DNA of 33,807 nucleotides, from contig JAZNYB010000273.1 of the NCBI GenBank assembly GCA_045594185.1, forward strand, positions 1-33,807, given 5' to 3'. Position numbers and translations under genes: made by a program. This DNA is from Faecousia sp. (GTDB lineage Bacteria; Bacillota; Clostridia; Oscillospirales; Oscillospiraceae). The notes beneath the pieces were generated by a model that was not told the DNA's origin, did no database searches, and worked only from the letters and a program-made list of their open reading frames with translations. The stretch's first letter is position 1. Each line of letters starts with the position of its first letter. This document shows, piece by piece, positions 1 through 33,807 of this stretch.

Positions 1-201
1 GTCCCGAATATCATGTTGACACTCCAGAACTTCTCCTTCCAGCTTATAGGTTCGCTCAATGAGGTTGTTGTGTTTCTGAACCTTCTCCTCCAGCTTTTGG
101 ATGCGGTACTGGGTCAACCGGCTGGAGGCGATCACCCCCAAGGAGCTGCCCAAAACCGTACCCGCAAGGCTTAAAAGCGCAACCAAAACCGTATCACTCA
201 A
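1..201 (-). CDS. Small phage lysis-module-type membrane protein (holin-associated/XhlA-like), 3' end runs off the window
   Basis: Not in the ORF track. Read manually from TTG at 201 after RBS GAAAGGAG: MSDTVLVALLSLAGTVLGSSLGVIASSRLTQYRIQKLEEKVQKHNNLIERTYKLEGEVLECQHDIRD. One N-terminal TM helix plus a coiled coil with the YRIxxLExKVxKHNNLIERTYKLE motif I recognise from clostridial phage genes next to holin/endolysin. Confidence 0.75.
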   Translation of the reverse strand, partial: MSDTVLVALLSLAGTVLGSSLGVIASSRLTQYRIQKLEEKVQKHNNLIERTYKLEGEVLECQHDIRD

Positions 202-304
202 GCTTTCATCTCCTTTCCAGCAATTCCACCTGTGCAAATTTCCGGCGTATATTTTTCCGTTTCATCTCCACAAGTGCCGTTGCATTTTTGATTATTTGCG
301 GATT

Positions 305-658
305 TCACTCCACCACTGCTTCCCCGCCCCGGATCAGGGTGGTGCGTTCCTGTCCTTGCAGACAAAGGTCATAGGTGTACTTCCCCGCCGGAAACATCGC
401 TGTCATTGCTTCGTCCATGGAAACGGTCAGAACCCCCTGTGCCACGGCATCGCCCTCAAAGCGCAGAGCGGTTACCGGGTCACGGTGCTTGTCGTAAAAG
501 GTCAGCTCCAGAGTATCCGTTTCCCCCGGAATTACCTCCTCGCCGTCTGTGTCCTGCAAGTCCAGATGAAGATGCAGACGGAATGTGTCCCCCTCGTACC
601 AAAAGATGACACCGTTTTCAATTCTGGGCGACATTTTCGCCCAAGGCAGTTTTGCCAT
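305..658 (-). CDS. Phage-like beta-rich protein, 117 aa (resembles BppU-N/tail-adaptor-type domains)
   Basis: Start refined to ATG at 658 after strong RBS AAGGAGG. GDTFxLxLxL...GKYTYDL pattern is typical of baseplate-upper/tail adaptor N-terminal domains. The family call is tentative. Confidence 0.55.
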   Translation of the reverse strand: MAKLPWAKMSPRIENGVIFWYEGDTFRLHLHLDLQDTDGEEVIPGETDTLELTFYDKHRDPVTALRFEGDAVAQGVLTVSMDEAMTAMFPAGKYTYDLCLQGQERTTLIRGGEAVVE

Positions 659-712
659 ATTTATCGCCTCCTTCCCCTGAAGCATAACCCATAAAGGGCA
701 ATTTTGCTAACC
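659..712 (-). promoter_or_regulatory. Phage-late-like leader copy 1: GGTTAG-N20-TATGCT plus RBS
   Basis: Minus strand reads GGTTAG CAAAATTGCCCTTTATGG GTTATGCT TC AGGGGAAGGAGG CGATAAAT ATG, near-identical to the terS leader. Confidence 0.7.
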
Positions 713-789
713 CGGGAAACCCAAGGCAGAATCCCTGCAGGATCATTCTGATCTTAGTTCTTTTACGAAGAATTACAGAAAGATCCAAT

Positions 790-942
790 GCAAATGACAA
801 AGAGAAAGAGAATGACAACGAAAAAGATAATGACAAAGAGAATGACAACGAAAAAGATAATGACAAAGAGAATGAAAAGGAAATGAGAATGACAATGATG
901 AATCGTACCACGAATCGTACCACGAATCGTACCACGAATCGT
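790..942. repeat. Tandem repeat tract: 30-bp unit x2 (811-870) in a purine-rich array, then 12-bp AATCGTACCACG x3.5 (901-942)
   Basis: Directly visible: AATGACAACGAAAAAGATAATGACAAAGAG twice, and AATCGTACCACG three times plus AATCGT. Confidence 0.9.
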
Positions 943-1015
943 GGAAAGGGGGGTAAAACAAGGAAAAGAAGCTAAGGTTAGCGGTTTTTCCTTTTTTGTT
1001 ATACGATGAAGATAG

Positions 1016-10627: not shown

Positions 10628-12808
10628 TTACTCCGCAAGGATGGTGATACGCCCCTGGGGATCGCTATACTCTGTGCCCACAACGCCCTCCAGCACCACC
10701 GTGATGTACTCCATGAGAGCCTCGTCCATGGGGATGCCGGTGTCAAACCGCTCTGTGGCACTGGCAAAAGCATAGTAGGTATCCCCGCCGGCGGCAAGGA
10801 AGTTGTTGGTCACCACGGCGTAGATTGCGTTTACATCAAAGCTCTGACCGTTCACTTCCTCAATGGAAACACGGTTAATGGAGGCAGGGCCATAGTAGGT
10901 AGAGCCGGGATAGGATGCTACCTTGGGGTCATATTCCTTGGTGGTATCCACGGTGAATTTCAGTCCCGCCACCTGAGGAAATGCCCCGGTAGTCTCAGGG
11001 GTGCAGAAGGTGGAGGCCTCCAGTGCTTCCAGCAGCTCCGCTCCTGTAACATAGACCAGGCAAACCGTGTTGCCGAAGGGAAGAACGGTATTGACATCAT
11101 TTTTGGTGATGTCTCCCGCCCCGATGGAGGCACGGATGCCGCCGCCGTTGGTAATGGCGATCACATTTTCGGCTCTGACCTTAACGCTTCCCTCATTCTT
11201 CAAAACCGTCCAAAGCAGAGCGTCCGTGATCAGGTCGCCCAGATTGGTTTCCTGAGCGCGAACAGACTCCCGCACGCCATTAAGCTCCACCTCGCTTCTG
11301 GCAAACACCTTGCCGTATTCCTCCAGAACCCGGTCAATGATTTCCTTGGCGGCAGCGGCGACCTTCTCCTCACCTTCACGCCACAGGGAGTTTCCCTCCT
11401 CGTCGGTATACTTCAGGGCTTCCAGACCATTGTCCTCGATCTCCCCGGTGCGGCTGTTCAGAAGGATGTAGCCCACATATTCCAGAGCCGTGCCGGTGGA
11501 CTGGATGGGTTCACCCTTTTCCCCCTCCGTCATAACCGTGTGGGAATGACCGTCAATGATGAAGTCCAGACCCGTGGTATTGGCATACAGATCCGGGGAG
11601 CGGTTGGGCTGAGACGCGGCATCCACACCCAAATGCGCCAAAGCAATGACCACATCGGCGGTGCTTTTCAGGGTATCCACTTCCTCCTGCACCGCTTCGT
11701 ACATATCCTCCCCTGCCAGGAAATTCAGTCCCTTAATCAGAGCGGGGTTTGCCTTGGTTTGAGATTCCGGGGTATTGACACCAACGAAGCCCACCTCCAG
11801 ACCAAAGGCAGAGGTGATCACAGTGCCGGGGGCATAGATCGGCTCACCTGCGGCATCCAGAACATTGGCGCAGATCACTTCAAAGCCTGCTTTTTCCAGA
11901 TTGCCCTTCAAGACCTCATAGCCGTAGTCAAATTCATGGTTGCCCAAAGTGGCGATATCGTAACCGGCAGCGTTCATCATAGTCACGGCATCGGCACCCT
12001 TGGTGGTGCTGACATAAGTCGTTCCCTGACTGAAATCCCCGGCATCCACCAGAATCACATCGGCACCCAGCAGCTCAAGCTGTTTTTTCAGGGAAGCGAC
12101 GGCGGCATAGCCCTCAATGGCACCGTGGACATCGTTGGTATGCAGAACAATGGTTTTTCCGTAATAGGGAGAGGACACGGACATCAGCATACGGTACAGC
12201 ATCTCTGCCAACTCCGCCCGCATACAAGTTCCCTTGGGGGCAAGCTGATCCTGGGCGCGACCTCTCACAATGTAGTTATGAACCGCCCACTGCATAGCTT
12301 CCTCTGCCCAGTCGGACACTTTGGGTGCATCGGCATAGCCGCTCAGGTCTTCCCGCCCCTCATTATCTTTTTCCGAAAATTGAACAAACCGGAAGAAGAT
12401 GCTTGCCAGCTCCTCCCGGGTGGCGGTATTCATGGGTCTGAAAGTACCGTTGCCATAGCCCATCACGATCCCATTGGCAGCAGCCCATTCCACGGCTTCG
12501 GAATACCACTTTCCCGCAGGCACATCGGAGAAGGTATTTTCGTCGGTTACCTCCTCCTGTCCCGCCACACGGTAAAGCACCGTTACGATCATGGCTCTGG
12601 TAACGGTGGCTTTGGGGGCAAAGTGGGTTTCGCTTACGCCCTGCATAAAGCCCGCTGCGGTCAGGGTCATCACCGCGTTATAAAACCAATCGTCTTCTTC
12701 CACATCCACATAGGTTTTGGTGGCGCTTTCCCCAAAGGCCGTGGGAGCCATGGTCAAAACCATCGCCAGAGCCAGCACCAGCGCGAGAAGCTTTCTCGTC
12801 CGTTTCAT
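10628..12808 (-). CDS. Secreted SLH-anchored bifunctional metallophosphatase/5'-nucleotidase
   Basis: Start refined to ATG 12808 (RBS AGGAGG). Signal peptide, three SLH repeats, then LHTNDVHG, DAGD, GNHEFDYG, AHLG, DGHSH and NGGGIRA motifs. Confidence 0.92.
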   Translation of the reverse strand: MKRTRKLLALVLALAMVLTMAPTAFGESATKTYVDVEEDDWFYNAVMTLTAAGFMQGVSETHFAPKATVTRAMIVTVLYRVAGQEEVTDENTFSDVPAGKWYSEAVEWAAANGIVMGYGNGTFRPMNTATREELASIFFRFVQFSEKDNEGREDLSGYADAPKVSDWAEEAMQWAVHNYIVRGRAQDQLAPKGTCMRAELAEMLYRMLMSVSSPYYGKTIVLHTNDVHGAIEGYAAVASLKKQLELLGADVILVDAGDFSQGTTYVSTTKGADAVTMMNAAGYDIATLGNHEFDYGYEVLKGNLEKAGFEVICANVLDAAGEPIYAPGTVITSAFGLEVGFVGVNTPESQTKANPALIKGLNFLAGEDMYEAVQEEVDTLKSTADVVIALAHLGVDAASQPNRSPDLYANTTGLDFIIDGHSHTVMTEGEKGEPIQSTGTALEYVGYILLNSRTGEIEDNGLEALKYTDEEGNSLWREGEEKVAAAAKEIIDRVLEEYGKVFARSEVELNGVRESVRAQETNLGDLITDALLWTVLKNEGSVKVRAENVIAITNGGGIRASIGAGDITKNDVNTVLPFGNTVCLVYVTGAELLEALEASTFCTPETTGAFPQVAGLKFTVDTTKEYDPKVASYPGSTYYGPASINRVSIEEVNGQSFDVNAIYAVVTNNFLAAGGDTYYAFASATERFDTGIPMDEALMEYITVVLEGVVGTEYSDPQGRITILAE

Positions 12809-12886
12809 TTGGTCAACCTCCTGAAGCATTGCTTCCCCCGGACAACCACCGGGGAGCAAATTTTTCAGGCTATGGCTTGGGGAAGT

Positions 12887-12981
12887 CAATTCCGATTTAT
12901 CGTTCTCAATGCGCCCACAGGGGCAATTCATGGCGATAAGCCCAATTCATGCACCCGAAGGGTGGCGACAAACCAAAATTT
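12887..12981. repeat. Short element with conserved ends (copy of the 15053-15106 element with an extra internal segment)
   Basis: CAATTCCGATTTATCGTTCTCAATGCGCCCACAGGG...GGGTGGCGACAAACCAAAATTT; matches the reverse complement of 15053-15106. Confidence 0.8.
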
Positions 12982-13044: not shown

Positions 13045-13329
13045 CTACTTTTCCTGAAAACCCTCCGAACAGGAAAACACAGCATTTTCCGGGAACGATT
13101 CCGCCAAAAGCTTCAATCCGGCGCAAACGAAATCCGCCTCCGGGCAGGGCTCGGAGAATCGAAACGCCCCGAAGCCCTCCCCCATTTCTGCCGCTCCCTC
13201 CGGAAGCACCGCCCGCAGTGTTTCCGTGAGAATGGATACGGCGGCGCAAACCAGATCCTGCCCTTTTGGAGCAGTTCCGGCGTGCCCCCTTATCACCAAT
13301 CGCCCCGGCGACCTGACCGCCCGGATCAT
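13045..13329 (-). CDS. Prp-like (DUF464) cysteine protease, phage-head-associated type
   Basis: GHAG...GQDLVCAAVSIL carries the catalytic His/Cys motif of Prp; ATGA-coupled to the portal stop. Confidence 0.8.
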   Translation of the reverse strand: MIRAVRSPGRLVIRGHAGTAPKGQDLVCAAVSILTETLRAVLPEGAAEMGEGFGAFRFSEPCPEADFVCAGLKLLAESFPENAVFSCSEGFQEK

Positions 13330-15020
13330 ACGCCCCCCTGCGCAACGGCTCTTGCCTTTTCCACAAAGGGATGCTCCCCGGAAGCCGCAGTCACAGCCGC
13401 CCGGTGCATTTGGGCAAGCCGCATTGCTTCATAGCTCCGTTTCCCCTCCGCGACCCGGCGGATCACTTCCGTTTTCCCCTTAAAGTCCATCATACCCAGC
13501 ATCATCAATGCCTGATCCGCCCGCTGGGGGTCAAACACGCCCATCTGGTAAAGCTGCACCGCAAGGTCGTTATAGGTCTGCTTTTTGTACTGGCTCTCTG
13601 TCTGTACCTCCACCTCAATGTCAAAAACCGGCTGCCGCAGACCGCCGTCCCGCTCCATGGCACGAAGCCCATCGTTGGCATAGGAGATATACCGGGCAGC
13701 ACCGTACTGTCCCAGGATCCGGAATCTCCGGGGCAGGGCATAAAACTGCCGGATCAGCTCAACGCAAAGCTCCGTCACTCTCCGGAAGGCACGGTAAGAC
13801 GAGGCGATCATGTCCCGGCTCAGTCCGTTTCCTGCCTCCTGCAAGGCGGCAATGGCAGAAGCGGCGGTGACTGCGGAGGAAGTGCCGCCGTTATTTACAT
13901 CCCGGTTGCCGCTGACCTCCTTCATCTCGTTGATCTTCATCTGCATATAGGTCAGGCAAGCCTGGGGCATGGGGTGGGTGGTGATCTGCTTCACGCTGTC
14001 GTCATCAATGCGCCCGGCAACATGAACGAACTTTTTGGTCATGTCCGCGTATTCCGCTTCGTTGACCCCACCATCCAGGCGCACAAACCACCGGGGGGTT
14101 GCGGAGGCTACGGCATTCTGCAAAATGCAGTTGTTGAGAATGTCAATGGATTTCTGGGGATCTTTGCACAGGTCTACATAGCCATAGCCGCAGCCGGGAT
14201 AGCCCTCCTCAGGAAACAGAGGGTCGAAAATGAAGGGATACTTGCCGTGGTCATACAATCCCCTTTGGGCATAGTCCGGCTCATTTTCCGTGGCAAACAG
14301 CACCGTGTCCCCCACAAACTTACAGAAATGAAGCACGCCGCCCTTTTTGTAGTACACATCCACCACTGCCGCCTTGTCAGCCGTGGAGATCGCCTCATCG
14401 TAGTGGTACTGCCGCACCAGTCCGGTATCCTGTCCCCATGTGTTTTTAAGCTGGGGATACGCCTCCTCCAGCTCCTGCCTGTCCATGAGCAGAACATGGA
14501 ACAGGTATTTGGACTTTTGAATATCCTTGATGCCCGGCTCCCAGAACAGATTGAGAATGTCCACCTTCTCCACGGAAATGTCTCCCAGACCGTTCAGCTT
14601 GCTCTCATCCCAGAACACGCCGTATACCCCCGTGCCGGATTTCAGCTTATACCACCACACATCCGACCACACCTGTCCGAAGTCGTTATGCTCCAGAATC
14701 ACCGGCAAAATGGAGGACAGTGCCTCCGCTTCTCCCCGGTCGCTTTCCTCTCTGGCAAGGCAGACAGGCTCCGGGTAGGCGTCCACCGCATCGGAATGTT
14801 TGGACAAAATGGCATTGACCAGCCAGCCGGAAGCAGGCTCAGGCTCACCGGGATTCTGGGGTCGGATGGAACGCCAATGGCGCAGCTTCCAGTATTCCTC
14901 CGCCTGAATGATGCGGCTGTCCAGAGCGTTCTTTCCCGCCCGGTAGGTTTCCAAAGCCTTGCGGAATTTCTCCAGCTCCGGCTTTCCAATGGGGGAAGCG
15001 GTTGTTTCGTGATGATTCAT
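13326..15020 (-). CDS. Phage portal protein (P22-like by motif impression)
   Basis: 564 aa directly after terL with a strong RBS; YPFIFDPLFP, GYGYVD..KDPQ..ID and GNRDVNNG..TAASAIAALQEAG patterns. Confidence 0.8.
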   Translation of the reverse strand: MNHHETTASPIGKPELEKFRKALETYRAGKNALDSRIIQAEEYWKLRHWRSIRPQNPGEPEPASGWLVNAILSKHSDAVDAYPEPVCLAREESDRGEAEALSSILPVILEHNDFGQVWSDVWWYKLKSGTGVYGVFWDESKLNGLGDISVEKVDILNLFWEPGIKDIQKSKYLFHVLLMDRQELEEAYPQLKNTWGQDTGLVRQYHYDEAISTADKAAVVDVYYKKGGVLHFCKFVGDTVLFATENEPDYAQRGLYDHGKYPFIFDPLFPEEGYPGCGYGYVDLCKDPQKSIDILNNCILQNAVASATPRWFVRLDGGVNEAEYADMTKKFVHVAGRIDDDSVKQITTHPMPQACLTYMQMKINEMKEVSGNRDVNNGGTSSAVTAASAIAALQEAGNGLSRDMIASSYRAFRRVTELCVELIRQFYALPRRFRILGQYGAARYISYANDGLRAMERDGGLRQPVFDIEVEVQTESQYKKQTYNDLAVQLYQMGVFDPQRADQALMMLGMMDFKGKTEVIRRVAEGKRSYEAMRLAQMHRAAVTAASGEHPFVEKARAVAQGGV

Positions 15021-15052
15021 ACTAAATACCTCCTGATGATATAGTAGAGTGA

Positions 15053-15106
15053 AAATTTTCGTTTGTCAGCACCCTGTGGCGCATTGGGAACGATAAATCG
15101 GAATTG
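15053..15106. repeat. Minimal copy of the short conserved-end element between terL and portal
   Basis: Reverse complement CAATTCCGATTTATCGTTCCCAATGCGCCACAGGGTGCTGACAAACGAAAATTT. Confidence 0.8.
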
Positions 15107-15115
15107 CCCTTTCTA

Positions 15116-16537
15116 TCATAAAAACGCCACCCGGTCGAAGCGGTCTTTATCCGTCATCTGATTTAAGGGGTCACTCCAAACAGGCTCCGCTGTCACAGAC
15201 ATTACCGGCTTAATGGGTCTTGTCATGCACATATACCGCACCTCGTCGGCTACATGATCTTCTCCCTCCGTGTCCAGATCTTCCGGGCGGCGATCGTCAT
15301 ACATGAGAAGGGGCATGGTGCGAATAAAGGCTTTGCACCCCTCAAAGACATACATCATGGCGTATCCATTCTCGTCAAAGGCAAGTCGGTAATGCACCTG
15401 CATCCAGCCGGGGATACGGTCATTGACGCCGGGGGAAAAGTACAGTCCGTACTTCACCGCCGTATCCGCCACGCTCTCTCCCTTGCTGCCATCCCAAATG
15501 GAGGGGTCAGCCACCCCCAGAATCTCTCTGCCCCTCAGCCACGGATGCTCCCTTTCAATGCGTTTTGCCTCCTGCATCTGCCGGTCTACCGTCCACTTCA
15601 CGCCCTCATTGGGGTTTTTGGTGCAGCCGTACAGCTCCAAGATCCGGTAGATCACGCCCTCATAATCCACTGCCCACCAGCCGAAGGAGAAGGGCTTTCC
15701 GTAGCCCCAGTCGTAGCTGCGGTAGATCGTCCAGCTTTTGGGAATGTCGAAGGGCTTGATCACATGACACCAACGCCGCTCCCGGCGTAACTGCTCCGGG
15801 TCTCCCAGGTCAGCCGGAGGATCTGGACGGAAGTCCTCAAAGAACTGCCCCTCGTATACATCCCACCTGCCATGAAGCCAGGCATCTTTGATCTTGCCGG
15901 GGAGCTTTTCAAGGCTTCTGATGTACTCCGGCTGAGCCTTCATCAAGGCAGTGTTGTCCGTGACCAGAGCCTGAATGAAGCTGTAATCCTCCGGGTGTTC
16001 TCCGTTTTCAAAACGACGATCAATGAAAAGCCGCTTGAAATAGCCGTGACTTGGGCCTCCGGGGTTCAGGGTGTAATAAGTCCTCTTGGGAAAGCTGTTT
16101 GCTCCACGGACACAGGCATCAATGGAGGTCAGCCAATTTTCCTGAAACTGCCCCGCTTCGTCAGCAAACCAAATGTCATACTCCGCGCCCTGATATTGCC
16201 CCAGATCTCCCTCATTGGCGCAGTAGCCAAACCAGATGGAAGATCCGTTGGGGAACAGAAAGCATTTGTCCGTCTTGTTGTACCTTGCCGCCCCATGGAG
16301 CATGGCTTGTAAGGGGTTAATGTGGTTGTTGAGAAGCTCCCGATAGGTTTTTCTGGTAATGAGACACTTAATGCCGGGGAATTTGGCGCACAGCAGCACC
16401 GCCTTCCACCGGACGAACCAGCTTTTCCCGCCCCCTCTCGCGCCACCGTAGGCTACATAGCGATGGCGATCCCGAAAGGCAAGAAGCTGCTTCTCGTTGG
16501 GCTGCTCCATGGGGATGGGGCTCAGATTATTCCGCAA
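15116..16537 (-). CDS. terL: Phage terminase large subunit
   Basis: Walker A GGARGGGKS, Walker B IWFADE, motif III TLNPGG, and nuclease acidic motifs SYDWG and EDHVADEVRY. The start is TTG 16537 or ATG 16510. Confidence 0.93.
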   Translation of the reverse strand: MRNNLSPIPMEQPNEKQLLAFRDRHRYVAYGGARGGGKSWFVRWKAVLLCAKFPGIKCLITRKTYRELLNNHINPLQAMLHGAARYNKTDKCFLFPNGSSIWFGYCANEGDLGQYQGAEYDIWFADEAGQFQENWLTSIDACVRGANSFPKRTYYTLNPGGPSHGYFKRLFIDRRFENGEHPEDYSFIQALVTDNTALMKAQPEYIRSLEKLPGKIKDAWLHGRWDVYEGQFFEDFRPDPPADLGDPEQLRRERRWCHVIKPFDIPKSWTIYRSYDWGYGKPFSFGWWAVDYEGVIYRILELYGCTKNPNEGVKWTVDRQMQEAKRIEREHPWLRGREILGVADPSIWDGSKGESVADTAVKYGLYFSPGVNDRIPGWMQVHYRLAFDENGYAMMYVFEGCKAFIRTMPLLMYDDRRPEDLDTEGEDHVADEVRYMCMTRPIKPVMSVTAEPVWSDPLNQMTDKDRFDRVAFL

Positions 16538-17081
16538 GCTCCTCCACCTCCTGAGAAAGCTGGATGCCGTAGCCTGTAACAGTCTGCTCCGATTGCTCCC
16601 GGAGAAGCTCCATTTTCTCCTCTGCCAGCTTTTGGGCGTGCTTTTGGGCCTGGGTGGGAAGCTCCTTGATATCCCGGATCACATCGGTCAGCTCCCGCAG
16701 CACCTTGGAAACCACCTGCACAGCGGAAATGTCCACCTTGTCCAGCCAAATCGTCTCCGGCACACTGTCCTCCACGGTTTCGCCGTTTTCGTCCTTGCTT
16801 TTGGTGCGGACGGTACGCAAATGCAAATGAAACTGATCCGAATCCCGCACCATTTCCTCCAACACCTGACACAGCATCACCGCCGTATCCATAAGTGTCT
16901 GCAGATCTCCTTCCCCGGAGGGCTTTTTCTGCTCACGCCTGTAGGCAAGCCTTTTTTTGTGCCAGCCAGCCTGCCTTCCCAGATTTCGCAGCGCAGTCCC
17001 TTCCAGCCCATGCTCCTTCGCCAAAGCTTCATAGGACATATCTCCGGTAACATAGGCTTTTTCCAATTTCTGTGACTCCAT
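16527..17081 (-). CDS. terS: Probable terminase small subunit (N-terminal HTH)
   Basis: YVTGDMSYEALAKEHG...GW HTH pattern, helical body, and overlap with the terL start. Confidence 0.7.
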   Translation of the reverse strand: MESQKLEKAYVTGDMSYEALAKEHGLEGTALRNLGRQAGWHKKRLAYRREQKKPSGEGDLQTLMDTAVMLCQVLEEMVRDSDQFHLHLRTVRTKSKDENGETVEDSVPETIWLDKVDISAVQVVSKVLRELTDVIRDIKELPTQAQKHAQKLAEEKMELLREQSEQTVTGYGIQLSQEVEELAE

Positions 17082-17315: not shown

Positions 17316-18401
17316 ATGAAACGCGTGATCCTTCTTTTGCTCACCCTCTGTATGCTTCTGTCCGGCTGTGGCATGGAGCTGTCCATTCCCGAAAGCCCTA
17401 CAAGCCCTGTAAGCACCCAAACCGATCCAACCCTCCCCCCTTCCGTCACGGAAGGCGTACCCACGCTTTTGCAGGTGCATTTCATTGATGTGGGACAGGC
17501 GGACTGCGCCCTTTTATATACCGACGGTCACGCCATGCTCATTGACGGCGGCAATGTGGACGATTCCTCTCTGGTGGTGTCCTATTTGCTGGACTTGGGT
17601 ATCGAGGAGCTGGACTGTGTCATCGCAACCCACGCCCACGAGGATCACGCCGGAGCATTGGGTGGAATTTTGGCAGTCTTCCCGGTGGAGACGGTTTATG
17701 TGACCACCACGACTTACGCCTCCAAATGCTACGATGACTTTATGCGCTATGTAGACCAGCAGGGGCTTACCCCCATCATCCCCAAGCCGGGAGATGTGTA
17801 CCACTTGGGCGATTGCGAGATCACCTTCCTTGGCCCTCAGAAATCCTATTCCGATACCAACGACACTTCTCTTGTGTGCCGGGCGGACTTCGGGGAGCGT
17901 TCCTTCCTCTTTACCGGGGACATGGAGCTGAACGCGGAATCCGACCTGCTGGCTGCGGGGGTAAACTTGAAAGCGGATGTTCTCAAGGTAGGACACCACG
18001 GCAGCTCCACCTCCACCGGCTATGCCTTCCTCCGGGCAGTCGCACCCATGTGGGGCGTGATCTCCTGCGGAAAGGACAATGACTACGGTCACCCCCACCG
18101 GGAGATCGTATCCCGGTTACAGGACGCGGAAGTCGCGTATTTCCGCACCGACCTTGCCGGTACAATCCTCGCCGAGACGGACGGCGAAAGTCTGGTTTTC
18201 TCCACGGGAAACAATGTTGCCCCGGAGGGCGGGGATAACGGCATAGAGGAAGAAGATGTCTTCATCGGCAATAAAAACTCCAAAAAATTCCACCTCCCCT
18301 CCTGTAACAGTCTGCCCAGCGAAAGCAATCAGGTGATCTTTGACAGCTACGAGGACGCCATCGCCGCCGGGTATACCCCCTGCGGAGGATGTTTGGGGTA
18401 A
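17316..18401 (+). CDS. Lipoprotein, ComEC/Rec2-like MBL-fold hydrolase with a C-terminal Ada-type Zn-binding domain
   Basis: Start refined to ATG 17316 (RBS AAGGAG). Lipobox LSGC; FIDVGQAD, THAHEDH, FTGD, KVGHHGS and YGHPH motifs; C-terminal GNKNSKKFHLPSC...GYTPCGGC. Confidence 0.9.
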   Translation: MKRVILLLLTLCMLLSGCGMELSIPESPTSPVSTQTDPTLPPSVTEGVPTLLQVHFIDVGQADCALLYTDGHAMLIDGGNVDDSSLVVSYLLDLGIEELDCVIATHAHEDHAGALGGILAVFPVETVYVTTTTYASKCYDDFMRYVDQQGLTPIIPKPGDVYHLGDCEITFLGPQKSYSDTNDTSLVCRADFGERSFLFTGDMELNAESDLLAAGVNLKADVLKVGHHGSSTSTGYAFLRAVAPMWGVISCGKDNDYGHPHREIVSRLQDAEVAYFRTDLAGTILAETDGESLVFSTGNNVAPEGGDNGIEEEDVFIGNKNSKKFHLPSCNSLPSESNQVIFDSYEDAIAAGYTPCGGCLG

Positions 18402-31757: not shown

Positions 31758-33775
31758 ATGACAAAGAAAATTTTATCTCTCATCCTGGCGTTCTGCATGA
31801 TCCTGGGCTGTCTGTCCACGATGGCATTTGCAGCGGAACCCGCAAGCTACACCCAAATCACCACTCTTGAGGAGCTGGTTTCCGGTCAGTATGTGCTGAT
31901 GCTGGATAACGGCTACGCCCCCGATGCTTATGGCGACTCCTGGATCTCCTGCCAGCAGCCCGCCATTGCCGAGGGTACAGTCACCGCCAATGCCTGGACC
32001 CTCACCGTTACGGAAACCGGTGTTAAGCTGGCTGACAGCAACGGTGTGTATGTAGCTCCCAAGGGCGGCAACAACAACGGCATCACCGAAGGTGAATATG
32101 AGTGGGCAGCTTCCTGCGCTGACGGCAAGTTCCGTTTCGCAGGCACCGGCTCCGATACCGTGATTCTGGCCAGCAACGCCAGCAGCTCCGGTGCCAACCG
32201 CTTCCGTGCCTACAAGTCCACCACCGTTACCGGCACGCCCGCTACATATCCCTGCGATTTCGCTCTGTACCGGATCGGGGAAGCTTCCTCTGAGCCCGAT
32301 CCCACTGAGACTCCCACTGAAACTCCCACTGAGCCTGAAGTAACCGAAACCCCCACCGAAACTCCCTCTGAGCCTGAGGTCACCGAGCCCGAAGTCACCG
32401 AAGAACCCACCGAAGCTCCCTCTGAGCCTGAGGTCACCGAGCCCGAAGTCACCGAAGAACCCACCGAAGCTCCCTCTGAGCCGGAAAGTGGCGCGGAAGC
32501 TACTTTGACCTTTGACGATACCGCAAAGCGGACAGAATTTTCCACCGAGCAGCAGACCTGGGAAGAGAACGGCATCAAGGCTGTGAACGCAAAGGCTTCT
32601 TCTACCACCAGCATTGCTGACTACGCCAATCCTGTTCGTTTCTATAAGAATTCTACTCTTACTGTTTCCGGCACAGGCGGAAATATCACCAAGATCGTTT
32701 TTGTCTGCAGCTCCGCATCTTATGCAAACACTCTGGCAACCTCCATCGGCAGTGATGCCGTTGCGGACGGTACTTCTGTTACCTACACTCTGGCTGAGGC
32801 TGCCGGGGAAGTAACCATCACCCTGAGCGGTGGTCAGGTTCGCATGAACAGCCTGACGGTAACCTATGCCGCCGAAACCGAGCCCGAGGAACCCGCTGCT
32901 CCCGAAATCACCGGCATCGAGATCGCAAATACTGATTCCGAACAGTACAATGCCGAAACCAAGACCTTTACCATTAAGCATGACGGCACCGGCGATCTGC
33001 CCATCCTGACCATCTCCGGCAACAATTTGGATGTGCCTATCAATGGTGTAAACCTTGTCCATATCGCGTCTTCACTTAGCATCGATCTGGATGAATTCGG
33101 TACATATAACAACGGTATTGTCACCTATGCATATGATAGCTTTGATATTGGTTTCCTCTCTACAGAGCCTTTCCAAATCCAGTACTCCAACGACGGCGGC
33201 CAGACTTGGATCGATTCCGGCTATTATGTGGTTCTGGAAGGTGTTGTTCCTGAAATCACCGGCATCGAGATCGCAAATACTGATTCCGAACAGTACAATG
33301 CCGAAACCAAAACCTTCATCATTAAGCATGATAACAGCGGCGACATGCCTGTACTGACCATCTCCGGCAACAATCTGGATGCGCTTACGCAAGGCGTAAA
33401 CTATGTCCAGCTCGTGGCCGCAGCCAGAATCGACCTTTTCAATTTTGGCACATATGATAATGGTGTTATCACCTATGAGCTCGACAGCCGTCTAATTGAC
33501 GATGTCACCACAGAGGCTTACCAGATCCGGTACTCCAACGACGGCGGTCTGACATGGAGCTACACCGACTACTATGTGGTTCGAGAAACCGTTGAGGACC
33601 CCCTTGCACCCGTGATCACCGGCGTTGAGATCACAAACACCGATTCTGCCCAGTACAATGCCGAAACCAAGACCTTCACCATCAAGGCTGACGACACCGG
33701 CGATATGCCTGTACTGACCATCTCCGGCAACAATCTGGATGCGCTTACGCAAGGCGTAAACTATGTCCAGCTCGT
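31758..33775 (+). CDS. Large secreted/surface protein, 3' truncated; Pro/Thr/Glu linker and 116-120 aa tandem domains
   Basis: Not in the ORF track because it has no stop. ATG 31758, signal peptide MTKKILSLILAFCMILGCLSTMAFA; in-frame sense reading wherever checked, and open to the contig end. Confidence 0.85.
32364..32482 (+). repeat. 54-bp coding tandem repeat (PSEPEVTEPEVTEEPTEA x2 plus a partial copy)
   Basis: Identical units start at 32364 and 32418; a partial unit starts at 32472. Confidence 0.9.
32901..33775 (+). repeat. Three 348-360 bp coding repeats (third truncated)
   Basis: Units start at 32901, 33249 and 33609: PxITGxEIxNTDSxQYNAETKTFxIK...PxLTISGNNLD...YSNDGGxTW. Confidence 0.9.
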
Positions 33776-33807
33776 AAGTCGGATCGTAGCCATGTCGTTC
33801 TGTGAGC
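33776..33807. other. MGI/DNBSEQ sequencing adapter remnant (artefact)
   Basis: AAGTCGGATCGTAGCCATGTCGTTCTGTGAGC matches the start of the MGI read adapter, and it begins exactly where repeat 3 stops matching repeat 2. Confidence 0.93.

What the first reader, a model, noticed from the sequence alone, without database searches (positions are those of the whole stretch)
13045..17081. Intact stand-alone DNA-packaging operon without capsid, integrase or replication genes
Seen: terS-terL-portal-Prp has uninterrupted frames, overlapping junctions, intact ATPase and nuclease motifs and host-like base composition. It is bounded on both sides by ordinary host genes, with no att-like repeats noticed. Known: scaffold and major capsid genes normally follow, and P22-type headful packagers can encapsidate host DNA. 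Inference: a maintained packaging machine serving a GTA-like particle or interfering with phages, rather than random decay.
Basis: partly seen in the sequence, partly recalled or inferred. Interest (0 to 1): 0.8.

Follow-up and report, generated by a model that had tools for sequence, protein, structure and literature searches.

The report
Scattered domesticated phage packaging module
These four intact DNA-packaging genes are one piece of a short-tailed phage whose head, tail, lysis, switch and replication genes lie scattered over at least eight places in a gut Faecousia genome, are inherited with the host and mostly share one promoter-like motif, so together they likely build gene-transfer-agent particles, possibly fed by phage-type replication origins.

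Summary
The terS-terL-portal-prp operon is real, intact and host-flanked, but it is not stand-alone. The same genome carries the rest of the phage in pieces: scaffold-capsid-adaptor-nozzle-tail (C116), lysis (window 1-658 joined to C210), an ImmA/repressor switch with a Cys4 protein (C91), two replication initiators and two tail-fibre loci. Nine head/tail proteins are homologous, in the same order, to FpGTA I of Faecalibacterium (27-53% identity), yet trees reject a common clade (AU p<1e-6), which points to a separate domestication. The three closest host relatives among 401 genomes have the same break after prp. Portal and capsid trees follow the host tree; dN/dS is 0.03-0.23. A motif GGTTAG-N20/21-TANNNT precedes all 12 packaging, head and lysis modules of the four species, and also fibre and initiator genes; related phages carry it before terS and scaffold, which explains the breakpoint. 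Intergenic copies of initiator repeats (one at window 770-950) suggest Bartonella-like run-off replication. Against: TerS keeps an N-terminal HTH, one relative's portal lacks the motif, five near relatives lack the set, and particles and transfer are untested. Verdict: new, highly dispersed variant of an FpGTA-like element.

The parts
16527..17081 (-). terS, small terminase, 184 aa; keeps a predicted N-terminal three-helix HTH (residues 2-38)
   Evidence: phrog_1206 residues 5-51; AlphaFold2 pLDDT 83-90 over residues 1-50; 76% identical to the G133 orthologue, dN/dS 0.14
15116..16537 (-). terL, large terminase, 473 aa, TTG start overlapping terS by 11 nt; the only Terminase_6N match in the genome
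   Evidence: dN/dS 0.04-0.05 vs G133
13326..15020 (-). P22-like portal, 564 aa
   Evidence: PF16510 E 1.5e-33; 44-46% to FpGTA I portal; dN/dS 0.11
13045..13329 (-). Prp-family cysteine protease, 94 aa, His16/Cys28 intact; predicted to cut the LxLQRF|A/S leaders of the scaffold and capsid proteins encoded on C116
   Evidence: motif found in only 2 of 2048 called proteins, both on C116; host has its own Prp next to L27
17103..17135 (-). GGTTAG-N21-TATGCT promoter-like motif upstream of terS
   Evidence: same motif before terS in G133, G056 and G058
15068..15112 (.). 45-bp repeat in the terL-portal spacer, with a partial inverted copy at 12887-12915 after prp; 7 blastn matches in the genome
305..658 (-). 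117-aa tail/baseplate-region protein that starts the lysis module (phrog_1084, unknown function; 'BppU-like' is my own label)
   Evidence: orthologues in 4 of 4 other genomes searched
1..204 (-). small membrane protein (phrog_1863), continuing on contig C210 into a holin and an endolysin
   Evidence: exact 82-nt overlap of the window's 5' end with C210; holin phrog_1129 E 2e-20, endolysin phrog_9589 E 3e-24
681..712 (-). GGTTAG-N20-TATGCT motif upstream of the lysis module
770..950 (+). intergenic copy of the repeat region that lies inside the C90/C132 initiator gene (three 12-mer repeats at 900-935 plus a partial fourth); candidate ectopic replication origin
   Evidence: 88% over 92 nt to C132; further copies on C266 and C38; origin function inferred
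976..1007 (+). second, divergent GGTTAG-N20-TACGAT motif on the other side of the repeat copy, with no ORF behind it
10628..12865 (-). host flank: SLH-domain 5'-nucleotidase; also follows prp in G133
17316..18401 (+). host flank: metallo-beta-lactamase-fold lipoprotein (ComEC-like; label recalled), divergent from terS; same neighbour in G133

Best explanation
The operon is the packaging module of a short-tailed temperate phage that sits in pieces around this Faecousia chromosome and is inherited with the host, and the pieces likely act together to make gene-transfer-agent-like particles filled with host DNA. Shown: the partner modules exist, are intact, are under purifying selection and follow the host tree; the packaging, head/tail, lysis, fibre and initiator modules each carry the same GGTTAG-N20/21-TANNNT motif. 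Inferred sequence of events: (1) the retained ImmA/XRE switch (C91) releases the divergent Cys4 gene, whose homologues sit just before terS in related prophages, where late activators usually lie; (2) Cys4 switches on all GGTTAG promoters in trans; (3) portal, scaffold and capsid assemble, and this operon's Prp trims their LxLQRF leaders; (4) TerS/TerL cut and pack chromosomal DNA by headfuls, probably with a bias because TerS keeps its HTH; (5) recruited phage initiators may fire run-off replication from ectopic copies of their repeat regions; (6) adaptor, nozzle and fibres are added, and holin/endolysin release the particles. The break after prp was possible because ancestral phages already had a second such promoter in front of the scaffold gene.
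For: Partner genes in the own genome. Gene-for-gene homology and same order as FpGTA I in strains named in PMC12946183. Same split in G133, G056 and G058, the top 3 host relatives by NusA among 401 genomes. Portal and capsid trees give (G058,(G056,(G000,G133))) like the NusA+RimP tree (G122 unresolved in the portal clade). dN/dS vs G133 is 0.03-0.23 for the 14 structural/lysis genes measured against 0.04-0.18 for 10 host genes, with overlapping dS, and 0.05-0.12 for the switch module and a fibre. Motif before 12 of 12 terS, scaffold and lysis modules in the 4 species. In G000 it lies within 150 nt upstream of 7 of 1830 genes: 5 phage-derived, 1 spurious ORF on a repeat copy, 1 host gene. Fibre and initiator genes were found by the scan rather than used to define it. 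Two-promoter layout in related phages: L011, a GTGTAG variant in the G133 prophage, and GTTTAG before the scaffold region in 3 of 63 viral loci. Prp leader motif only on scaffold and capsid, conserved in all 4 species; the host L27 leader differs. Switch module conserved in 4 of 4 species with different flanks.
Against: No particle, expression or transfer data for this organism. TerS keeps an N-terminal HTH in G000 and G133, whereas its absence is proposed as the mark of GTA-type TerS (PMC6854486). In G133 portal-prp is further separated from terS-terL and I found no motif in the 611 bp upstream. Patchy: 91 of 401 genus genomes have the portal; G105, G396, G060, G126 (99-100% complete) and G153 lack the capsid gene; G122 has terL-portal-prp and Cys4 but no capsid or nozzle match. 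The motif was first seen in these same upstream regions, and the relaxed pattern is not enriched genome-wide over a reversed control in relatives. Cys4 has no solved-structure match (best Z 4.4), so its activator role rests on position alone. dS is near saturation, so the ratios are rough. terL is exchanged with a co-resident prophage, which could mimic conservation for that gene.
Confidence: 0.65

Rival explanations
1. Same dispersed, co-regulated system, but the particles serve competition or defence (PBSX-like killing of related strains, decoys, programmed lysis) rather than gene transfer.
For: All genomic evidence above fits equally. PMC12946183 (Discussion) leaves this open even for FpGTA. 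Two fibre loci differ among species.
Against: Short-tailed architecture without a contractile sheath. Initiators, repeat copies and a RecE-like exonuclease are kept, which suits DNA supply more than killing (inference).
Confidence: 0.15
2. Fragments of an old prophage scattered by rearrangement, kept partly intact by recombination with, or use by, incoming related phages; no coherent particle is made.
For: G133's host-flanked terL is 93-94% identical in DNA to its prophage's terL, against 77% for the portals. G133's portal-prp lacks the motif. The set is lost in several near relatives and apparently partly lost in G122.
Against: All modules are intact in 4 species across dS of about 1 or more. 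Portal and capsid follow the host tree and not the prophage. Each separated module has the motif, including the lysis module and non-homologous initiators that were not operon starts in the contiguous relatives examined.
Confidence: 0.1
3. The four genes act on their own as an anti-phage or satellite-like interference module that diverts an invading phage's packaging.
For: TerS keeps a predicted HTH. Related phages share the promoter type and could trans-activate it. G122 seems to hold the packaging genes without capsid.
Against: Cognate scaffold, capsid, tail and lysis genes are present and co-marked. The Prp substrates are on C116. No integrase was found beside the operon.
Confidence: 0.07
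4. The split is an assembly or binning artefact of a fragmented metagenome-assembled genome.
For: 289 contigs, N50 9.9 kb, 83% complete.
Against: Both breakpoints lie inside contigs. The same split occurs in 3 other species, with the prp-nucleotidase and comEC-terS neighbours shared with G133. An independent contig bridges the junction.
Confidence: 0.02

Closest known systems
FpGTA of Faecalibacterium (Borodovich et al. 2026, PMC12946183; read: abstract, part of Results, sections 9, 10, 26, part 1 of supplementary files 3 and 4 and a search in file 4)
   Same: Homologous genes in the same order: terL 40%, portal 44-46%, Prp 34-38%, scaffold 31-35%, N4-gp56 capsid 42-44%, small protein 45-53%, adaptor 27-37%, nozzle 30-33%, last protein 35-38%. 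Podovirus-like, with a separate fibre/lysis locus.
   Different: FpGTA I is one 10.5-kb operon with Prp fused to the scaffold and a ~95-aa TerS without HTH. Here the operon is broken exactly between Prp and scaffold, TerS is 184 aa with a predicted HTH, a prophage switch and initiators are kept, and the GGTTAG motif was absent from the 6 Faecalibacterium loci scanned. Trees reject one clade (p-AU 6e-7 portal, 4e-49 capsid).
BaGTA with run-off replication, Bartonella (PMC2697382 abstract; bioRxiv 2024.11.20.624540 abstract)
   Same: Separate phage-derived replication and capsid modules under joint control; amplified DNA is packaged (works-like comparison, inferred here).
   Different: No homology tested or expected. 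Here several initiators that differ between species and several ectopic repeat copies; joint control is inferred to be by a shared promoter motif, not by antitermination; amplification is not shown.
Ltr/RinA late-activator circuits of Gram-positive phages (PMC3753634 abstract)
   Same: [quoted passage not shown]
   Different: The Cys4 protein has no PHROG match and structural matches only to uncharacterised phage proteins; its activator role is untested.
Prp processing of phage 80alpha scaffold and capsid (PMC5744158, PMC9405229; passages)
   Same: LxLQxF|A-type leaders on both scaffold and capsid; His/Cys dyad.
   Different: 80alpha uses the host Prp. Here a phage-derived Prp is encoded at another locus, the leader reads QRF, and the host keeps its own Prp/L27 pair.
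Contiguous relatives in Faecousia and related phages (G351, G399, G133 prophage, IMG/VR contigs)
   Same: Same gene order terS to holin; nearest sister lineages in the portal and capsid trees.
   Different: They keep early genes, switch and structural genes in one block.

Membership tests
GTA (definition of Kogay et al. 2022, PMC9662315) | Caudoviricete-derived proteins able to form a virion-like particle | tested here: met
   TerL, portal, N4-gp56 capsid (TIGR04387 above cut-off), nozzle, fibres, holin and endolysin found; particles themselves not seen
GTA (definition of Kogay et al. 2022, PMC9662315) | Fully endogenised, often across multiple loci | tested here: met
   At least 8 places, host genes on at least one side of each, no att pair around the operon; the two fibre loci run to contig ends
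GTA (definition of Kogay et al. 2022, PMC9662315) | Own genome cannot be packaged whole | tested here: inconclusive
   About 23 kb of modules (rough sum) are interleaved with host DNA, which makes single-particle packaging implausible, but head size and distances between contigs are unknown
GTA (definition of Kogay et al. 2022, PMC9662315) | Mostly vertical inheritance, co-diversifying with the host | tested here: met
   Portal and capsid trees match the host tree for 4 species (capsid clade support 90/94, G122 unresolved for portal); exceptions: terL exchange with a prophage, and losses in near relatives
GTA (definition of Kogay et al. 2022, PMC9662315) | Packages mostly random host DNA | not testable with these tools
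   No virus-like-particle run of this organism among the 15 runs listed
GTA (definition of Kogay et al. 2022, PMC9662315) | Delivers DNA to other cells | not testable with these tools
   Needs a transfer assay
GTA-type TerS (PMC6854486) | No N-terminal DNA-binding domain | tested here: not met
   HTH-like region kept in G000 and G133; absent in G056 and G058
FpGTA proper | Homology and gene order of FpGTA I | tested here: met
FpGTA proper | Common descent from the same domestication (one clade) | tested here: not met
   AU tests reject; phage and prophage rows lie between
FpGTA proper | Single contiguous head operon with Prp-scaffold fusion | tested here: not met
BaGTA-like run-off replication | Phage-derived initiator/helicase genes apart from the capsid locus | tested here: met
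   G000 C90/C132 and C2, G133 C168, G056 C77 and C88; none found in G058 (82% complete)
BaGTA-like run-off replication | Local amplification and over-packaging around the origin | not testable with these tools
   Only contigs available; depth cannot rank regions
Intact prophage or capsid-forming satellite (features recalled) | Contiguous element with integrase and att sites | tested here: not met
   No integrase or att pair at the packaging or capsid locus

The most novel reading that the evidence does not exclude
A Gram-positive gene transfer agent whose ancestral phage has been taken apart into eight or more host-flanked modules wired by one uncharacterised Cys4 activator and a GGTTAG promoter. 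It keeps recruiting new phage initiators into that regulon and plants ectopic copies of their origins around the chromosome, so that chosen regions are amplified by run-off replication and preferentially packaged: a convergent, multi-origin counterpart of Bartonella's BaGTA. Because it exchanges terL with live prophages, it is also a two-way gene pool with its viral relatives.
Probability: 0.3. Interest if true: 0.85.

Novelty: new variant of a known kind. Interest (0 to 1): 0.68.

Why it matters
GTA-like packaging is common in gut Oscillospiraceae, but the genes have been pinned down only in Faecalibacterium (PMC12946183). A 2026 preprint saw Bartonella-like coverage peaks in an Oscillospiraceae genome, one of them without a helicase nearby, and found no strong GTA cluster (10.64898/2026.07.08.737213, section 12). 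A system broken into small modules with ectopic origins would explain why cluster-based searches fail, and it supplies a short DNA motif and a candidate activator to find and trigger such systems. The four-species series (contiguous relatives, split after prp, further split after terL, TerS HTH kept or lost) is a natural record of phage domestication in progress.

Tried and rejected
Foldseek of the TerS model against the PDB gave no match at E<=0.001 (an SPP1-like TerS appeared at rank 15, E 1.6): inconclusive. The Cys4 model (pLDDT 86) had no PDB match above Z 4.4; the ESM Atlas could not be queried for it. Sequencing runs held at most 0.21 of the words; RNA-library contigs touch the operon, but only contigs were available, so expression is not shown. 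The C90 initiator was found in 0 of 5 relatives, and the window's repeat copy in 0 of 5, so this initiator/origin pair is specific to G000. The G056 repeat copies are weak (77-88% over 33-81 nt, E 7e-7 to 4e-4), and C38's copy has no flanking motif. Reading the repeat copies as mere leftovers of duplicated initiator genes is not excluded. Genome-wide counts of the relaxed motif did not exceed the reversed control in 5 relatives; in G000, intergenic hits at spacer 20-21 were 12 against a mean of 2.5 (range 0-5) in 13 other two-wide bins. The first large portal tree finished only in quick mode and was redone on 18 rows. The TerL trees do not resolve the four species as one clade. No tRNA or att site in the window. 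Literature: 'gene transfer agent' + 'Oscillospiraceae' gave 9 papers, 5 listed; 'Faecousia' + 'gene transfer agent' gave 0. Most subscription papers are not searched, and the preprint's supplements, which may show the Pelethomonas loci, were not seen. Integrase-like matches elsewhere in the genome (C287, C60, C35; 24-26% identity) were not followed up.


Full report
Observation. The window is a whole contig (C273) of a 2.16-Mb, 83%-complete genome in 289 contigs. A close relative's capsid protein is named Faecousia sp. by its source, so the host is placed in that Oscillospiraceae genus. The four frames are open and identified as terS, terL, P22-like portal and Prp. The TerL ATPase and nuclease motifs and the Prp His16/Cys28 pair are intact. 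Composition is host-like. Both flanks are host genes, and no att pair was found. Two of three junctions overlap; terL and portal are 95 bp apart, with a 45-bp repeat in the gap whose partial inverted copy follows prp. An independent contig bridges the prp-nucleotidase junction.

The operon is not alone. ORFs from 80 viral loci that carry related terL genes, searched against the own genome, hit contig C116. C116 holds scaffold, N4-gp56 major capsid (TIGR04387), a 71-aa protein, adaptor, nozzle-like protein, a 243-aa protein, a DUF859 tail protein and a peptidoglycan-binding protein, between glyA and a DUF6088/AbiEii pair ('scaffold', 'adaptor' and 'nozzle' are assigned by position and by homology to FpGTA proteins). 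The window's own 5' end is a third module: a 117-aa protein and a small membrane protein, joined by an exact 82-nt overlap to C210 with holin and endolysin, followed by host ribosomal genes. C91 holds a metalloprotease and XRE repressor divergent from a 75-aa Cys4 protein, a RecE-like exonuclease and a 95-aa protein. C90/C132 hold a DnaD-like initiator and a loader-like gene between pyrH and a copper-resistance pair; C2 holds a second, unrelated initiator; C13 and C229/C192 hold tail-fibre genes. The genome has one terL and, with my queries, one capsid gene of this family. Of 2048 called proteins only the scaffold and capsid begin with an LxLQRF-A/S leader, the type cut by Prp in phage 80alpha (PMC5744158, PMC9405229; passages). 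The host has a separate Prp beside an L27 with a different leader. That ties this operon's Prp to C116 (inference).

Relatives. In the IMG/VR and genus loci printed the order terL-portal-prp-scaffold-capsid-nozzle is contiguous wherever the contig reaches far enough, with a few rearranged exceptions. Among 401 genus genomes 91 have the portal (30 of 94 near-complete ones). The three closest portals (G133 85%, G056 80%, G058 79%) belong to the three closest hosts by NusA, and all three have the same break after prp, with the capsid operon on another contig among different host genes. The lysis and switch modules are likewise separate and conserved. G133 has gone further: terS-terL is followed by a nitroreductase and portal-prp is preceded by a membrane-protein gene. 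Portal and capsid trees give (G058,(G056,(G000,G133))), as does the host NusA+RimP tree, nested among contiguous prophage-like relatives. dN/dS against G133 by a Nei-Gojobori script is 0.14, 0.04-0.05, 0.11 and 0.16 for the four genes and 0.03-0.23 for all 14 structural/lysis genes measured, against 0.04-0.18 for 10 host genes, with overlapping and partly saturated dS. Against a universal role: G105, G396, G060, G126 and G153 lack the capsid gene (0 of 5), and G122 has packaging and switch genes but no capsid or nozzle match (its relevant contigs end close by, so this may be assembly). G133 also carries a full prophage whose terL is 93-94% identical in DNA to its host-flanked terL while the portals are 77% identical. 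That terL nests with G000/G133, which points to recent exchange; capture by the phage is the simpler direction but was not formally tested.

A shared promoter-like motif. Upstream of terS, scaffold and the lysis module in all four species lies GGTTAG, 20-21 nt, then a TANNNT hexamer (12 of 12). In G000 a stricter form occurs 7 times among 158 GGTTAG sites, against at most 1 at any other spacing. The relaxed form lies within 150 nt upstream of 7 of 1830 genes, 5 of them phage-derived. Scanning for it led to fibre genes and to replication initiators in G000, G133 and G056, and to a fibre gene in G058; these were not used to define it. Other hits lie before ordinary host genes, and the relaxed pattern is not enriched genome-wide over a reversed control, so the argument is positional. 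A 42.7-kb viral contig has the same motif before both terS and scaffold, the G133 prophage a GTGTAG variant at both places, and 3 of 63 viral loci a GTTTAG variant before the scaffold region. The ancestor therefore had an internal late promoter exactly where the operon broke (inference). The Cys4 protein is homologous to the gene directly upstream of terS in related prophages, the usual place of late activators in Gram-positive phages (PMC3753634, abstract). It folds confidently but matches only uncharacterised phage proteins. Its role as activator is inferred from position and conservation (dN/dS 0.05).

Candidate ectopic origins. The repeat region inside the C90/C132 initiator gene occurs again, without the gene, at three intergenic places: window 770-950, C266 and C38. 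The window's copy lies between two outward-facing GGTTAG motifs. G133 has one such copy of its own, different initiator's repeats next to a motif; G056 has weak copies between two divergent motifs. Phage origins commonly lie within initiator genes (recalled), so these may be extra origins for run-off replication as in Bartonella (PMC2697382, abstract). A mouse-gut preprint reports two such coverage peaks in an Oscillospiraceae genome, one without a nearby helicase, and no strong GTA cluster (10.64898/2026.07.08.737213, section 12 and passages). This part is the least certain; leftover fragments of duplicated genes remain possible.

Comparison. Using a gut contig of this family as query, I fetched the loci of Faecalibacterium strains that PMC12946183 lists as carrying FpGTA I. 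Nine G000 proteins match them in order, as the paper's proteomics table also implies. FpGTA has Prp fused to the scaffold, a short TerS without HTH and no GGTTAG motif in the 6 loci scanned. AU tests reject a clade of FpGTA plus the split copies. So this works like FpGTA but is a separate domestication of the same phage family. Of the six GTA criteria in PMC9662315 (passages) three are met, one is inconclusive and two need experiments. The proposed TerS hallmark (PMC6854486, passages) is not met in G000, since an HTH is predicted, which would favour biased rather than random packaging. Earlier AI notes on other genomes describe contiguous loci of this kind; they are leads, not support, and their listed summaries mention no dispersal, motif or repeat copies.

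Verdict. A real, maintained packaging module of a dispersed, likely co-regulated, FpGTA-like particle system (confidence 0.65), a new variant of a known kind. The multi-origin run-off reading has about 0.3 probability and would be of high interest. Overall interest 0.68.

Noticed in passing
G133 C83 + C162 (L237, L164) versus C167 + C127 (L239, L238): A full prophage and the host-flanked locus share terL at 93-94% DNA identity while their portals share 77%: recent terL exchange between a prophage and a domesticated module.
   Followed up: partly
G122 C39 and C29 (L163, L350): A 98%-complete relative has switch, initiator, Cys4, terL-portal-prp and a GGTTAG motif right after prp, but no capsid or nozzle match; either a true capsid-less remnant or an assembly gap.
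   Followed up: partly
G004 C14 (L112), G008 C24 (L113), G013 C30 (L111), G014 C111 (L121), G024 C35 (L118): Other Faecousia lineages carry contiguous versions at different stages of reduction (host-flanked without early genes; switch only; switch plus initiator), in other clades of the portal tree: several independent domestications seem likely.
   Followed up: partly
G351 C113 (L167) and G399 C118 (L166): Compact ~16-kb contiguous elements with switch, initiator and Cys4; no integrase among the genes called next to ImmA in G351.
   Followed up: partly
G397 C42 (L165): Capsid and adaptor lie upstream of the portal, a different gene order from all other relatives seen.
   Followed up: no
G058 C178 (L188:8753-10252): Lysis module and head operon are transcribed divergently from one 150-bp spacer that holds two GGTTAG motifs, one on each strand.
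   Followed up: yes
G056 C77 and C88 (L352, L354): Two phage-type initiators with long expanded internal repeat tracts (proteins of 683 and 560 aa), one followed by a DnaB-like helicase.
   Followed up: partly
G000 C13:2253-2672 (L341): A truncated ORF resembling the C-terminus of a serine recombinase (label recalled) beside a fibre gene; G000 has two related fibre loci.
   Followed up: no
G000 C36:3469: The GGTTAG motif also lies upstream of a host lipoprotein gene behind a two-component system; chance or a host gene in the regulon.
   Followed up: no
G058 C104 (L246): A second, more distant short-tailed element (TerL 42%) with reversed head-gene order.
   Followed up: no
L127:10877-12521 (G000 C116): A DUF6088/AbiEii toxin-antitoxin-like pair directly follows the head/tail operon in G000 but not in G133.
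   Followed up: no
window 31773-33807: Repetitive minus-strand ORFs face what looks like a long plus-strand surface-protein gene running off the contig end.
   Followed up: no
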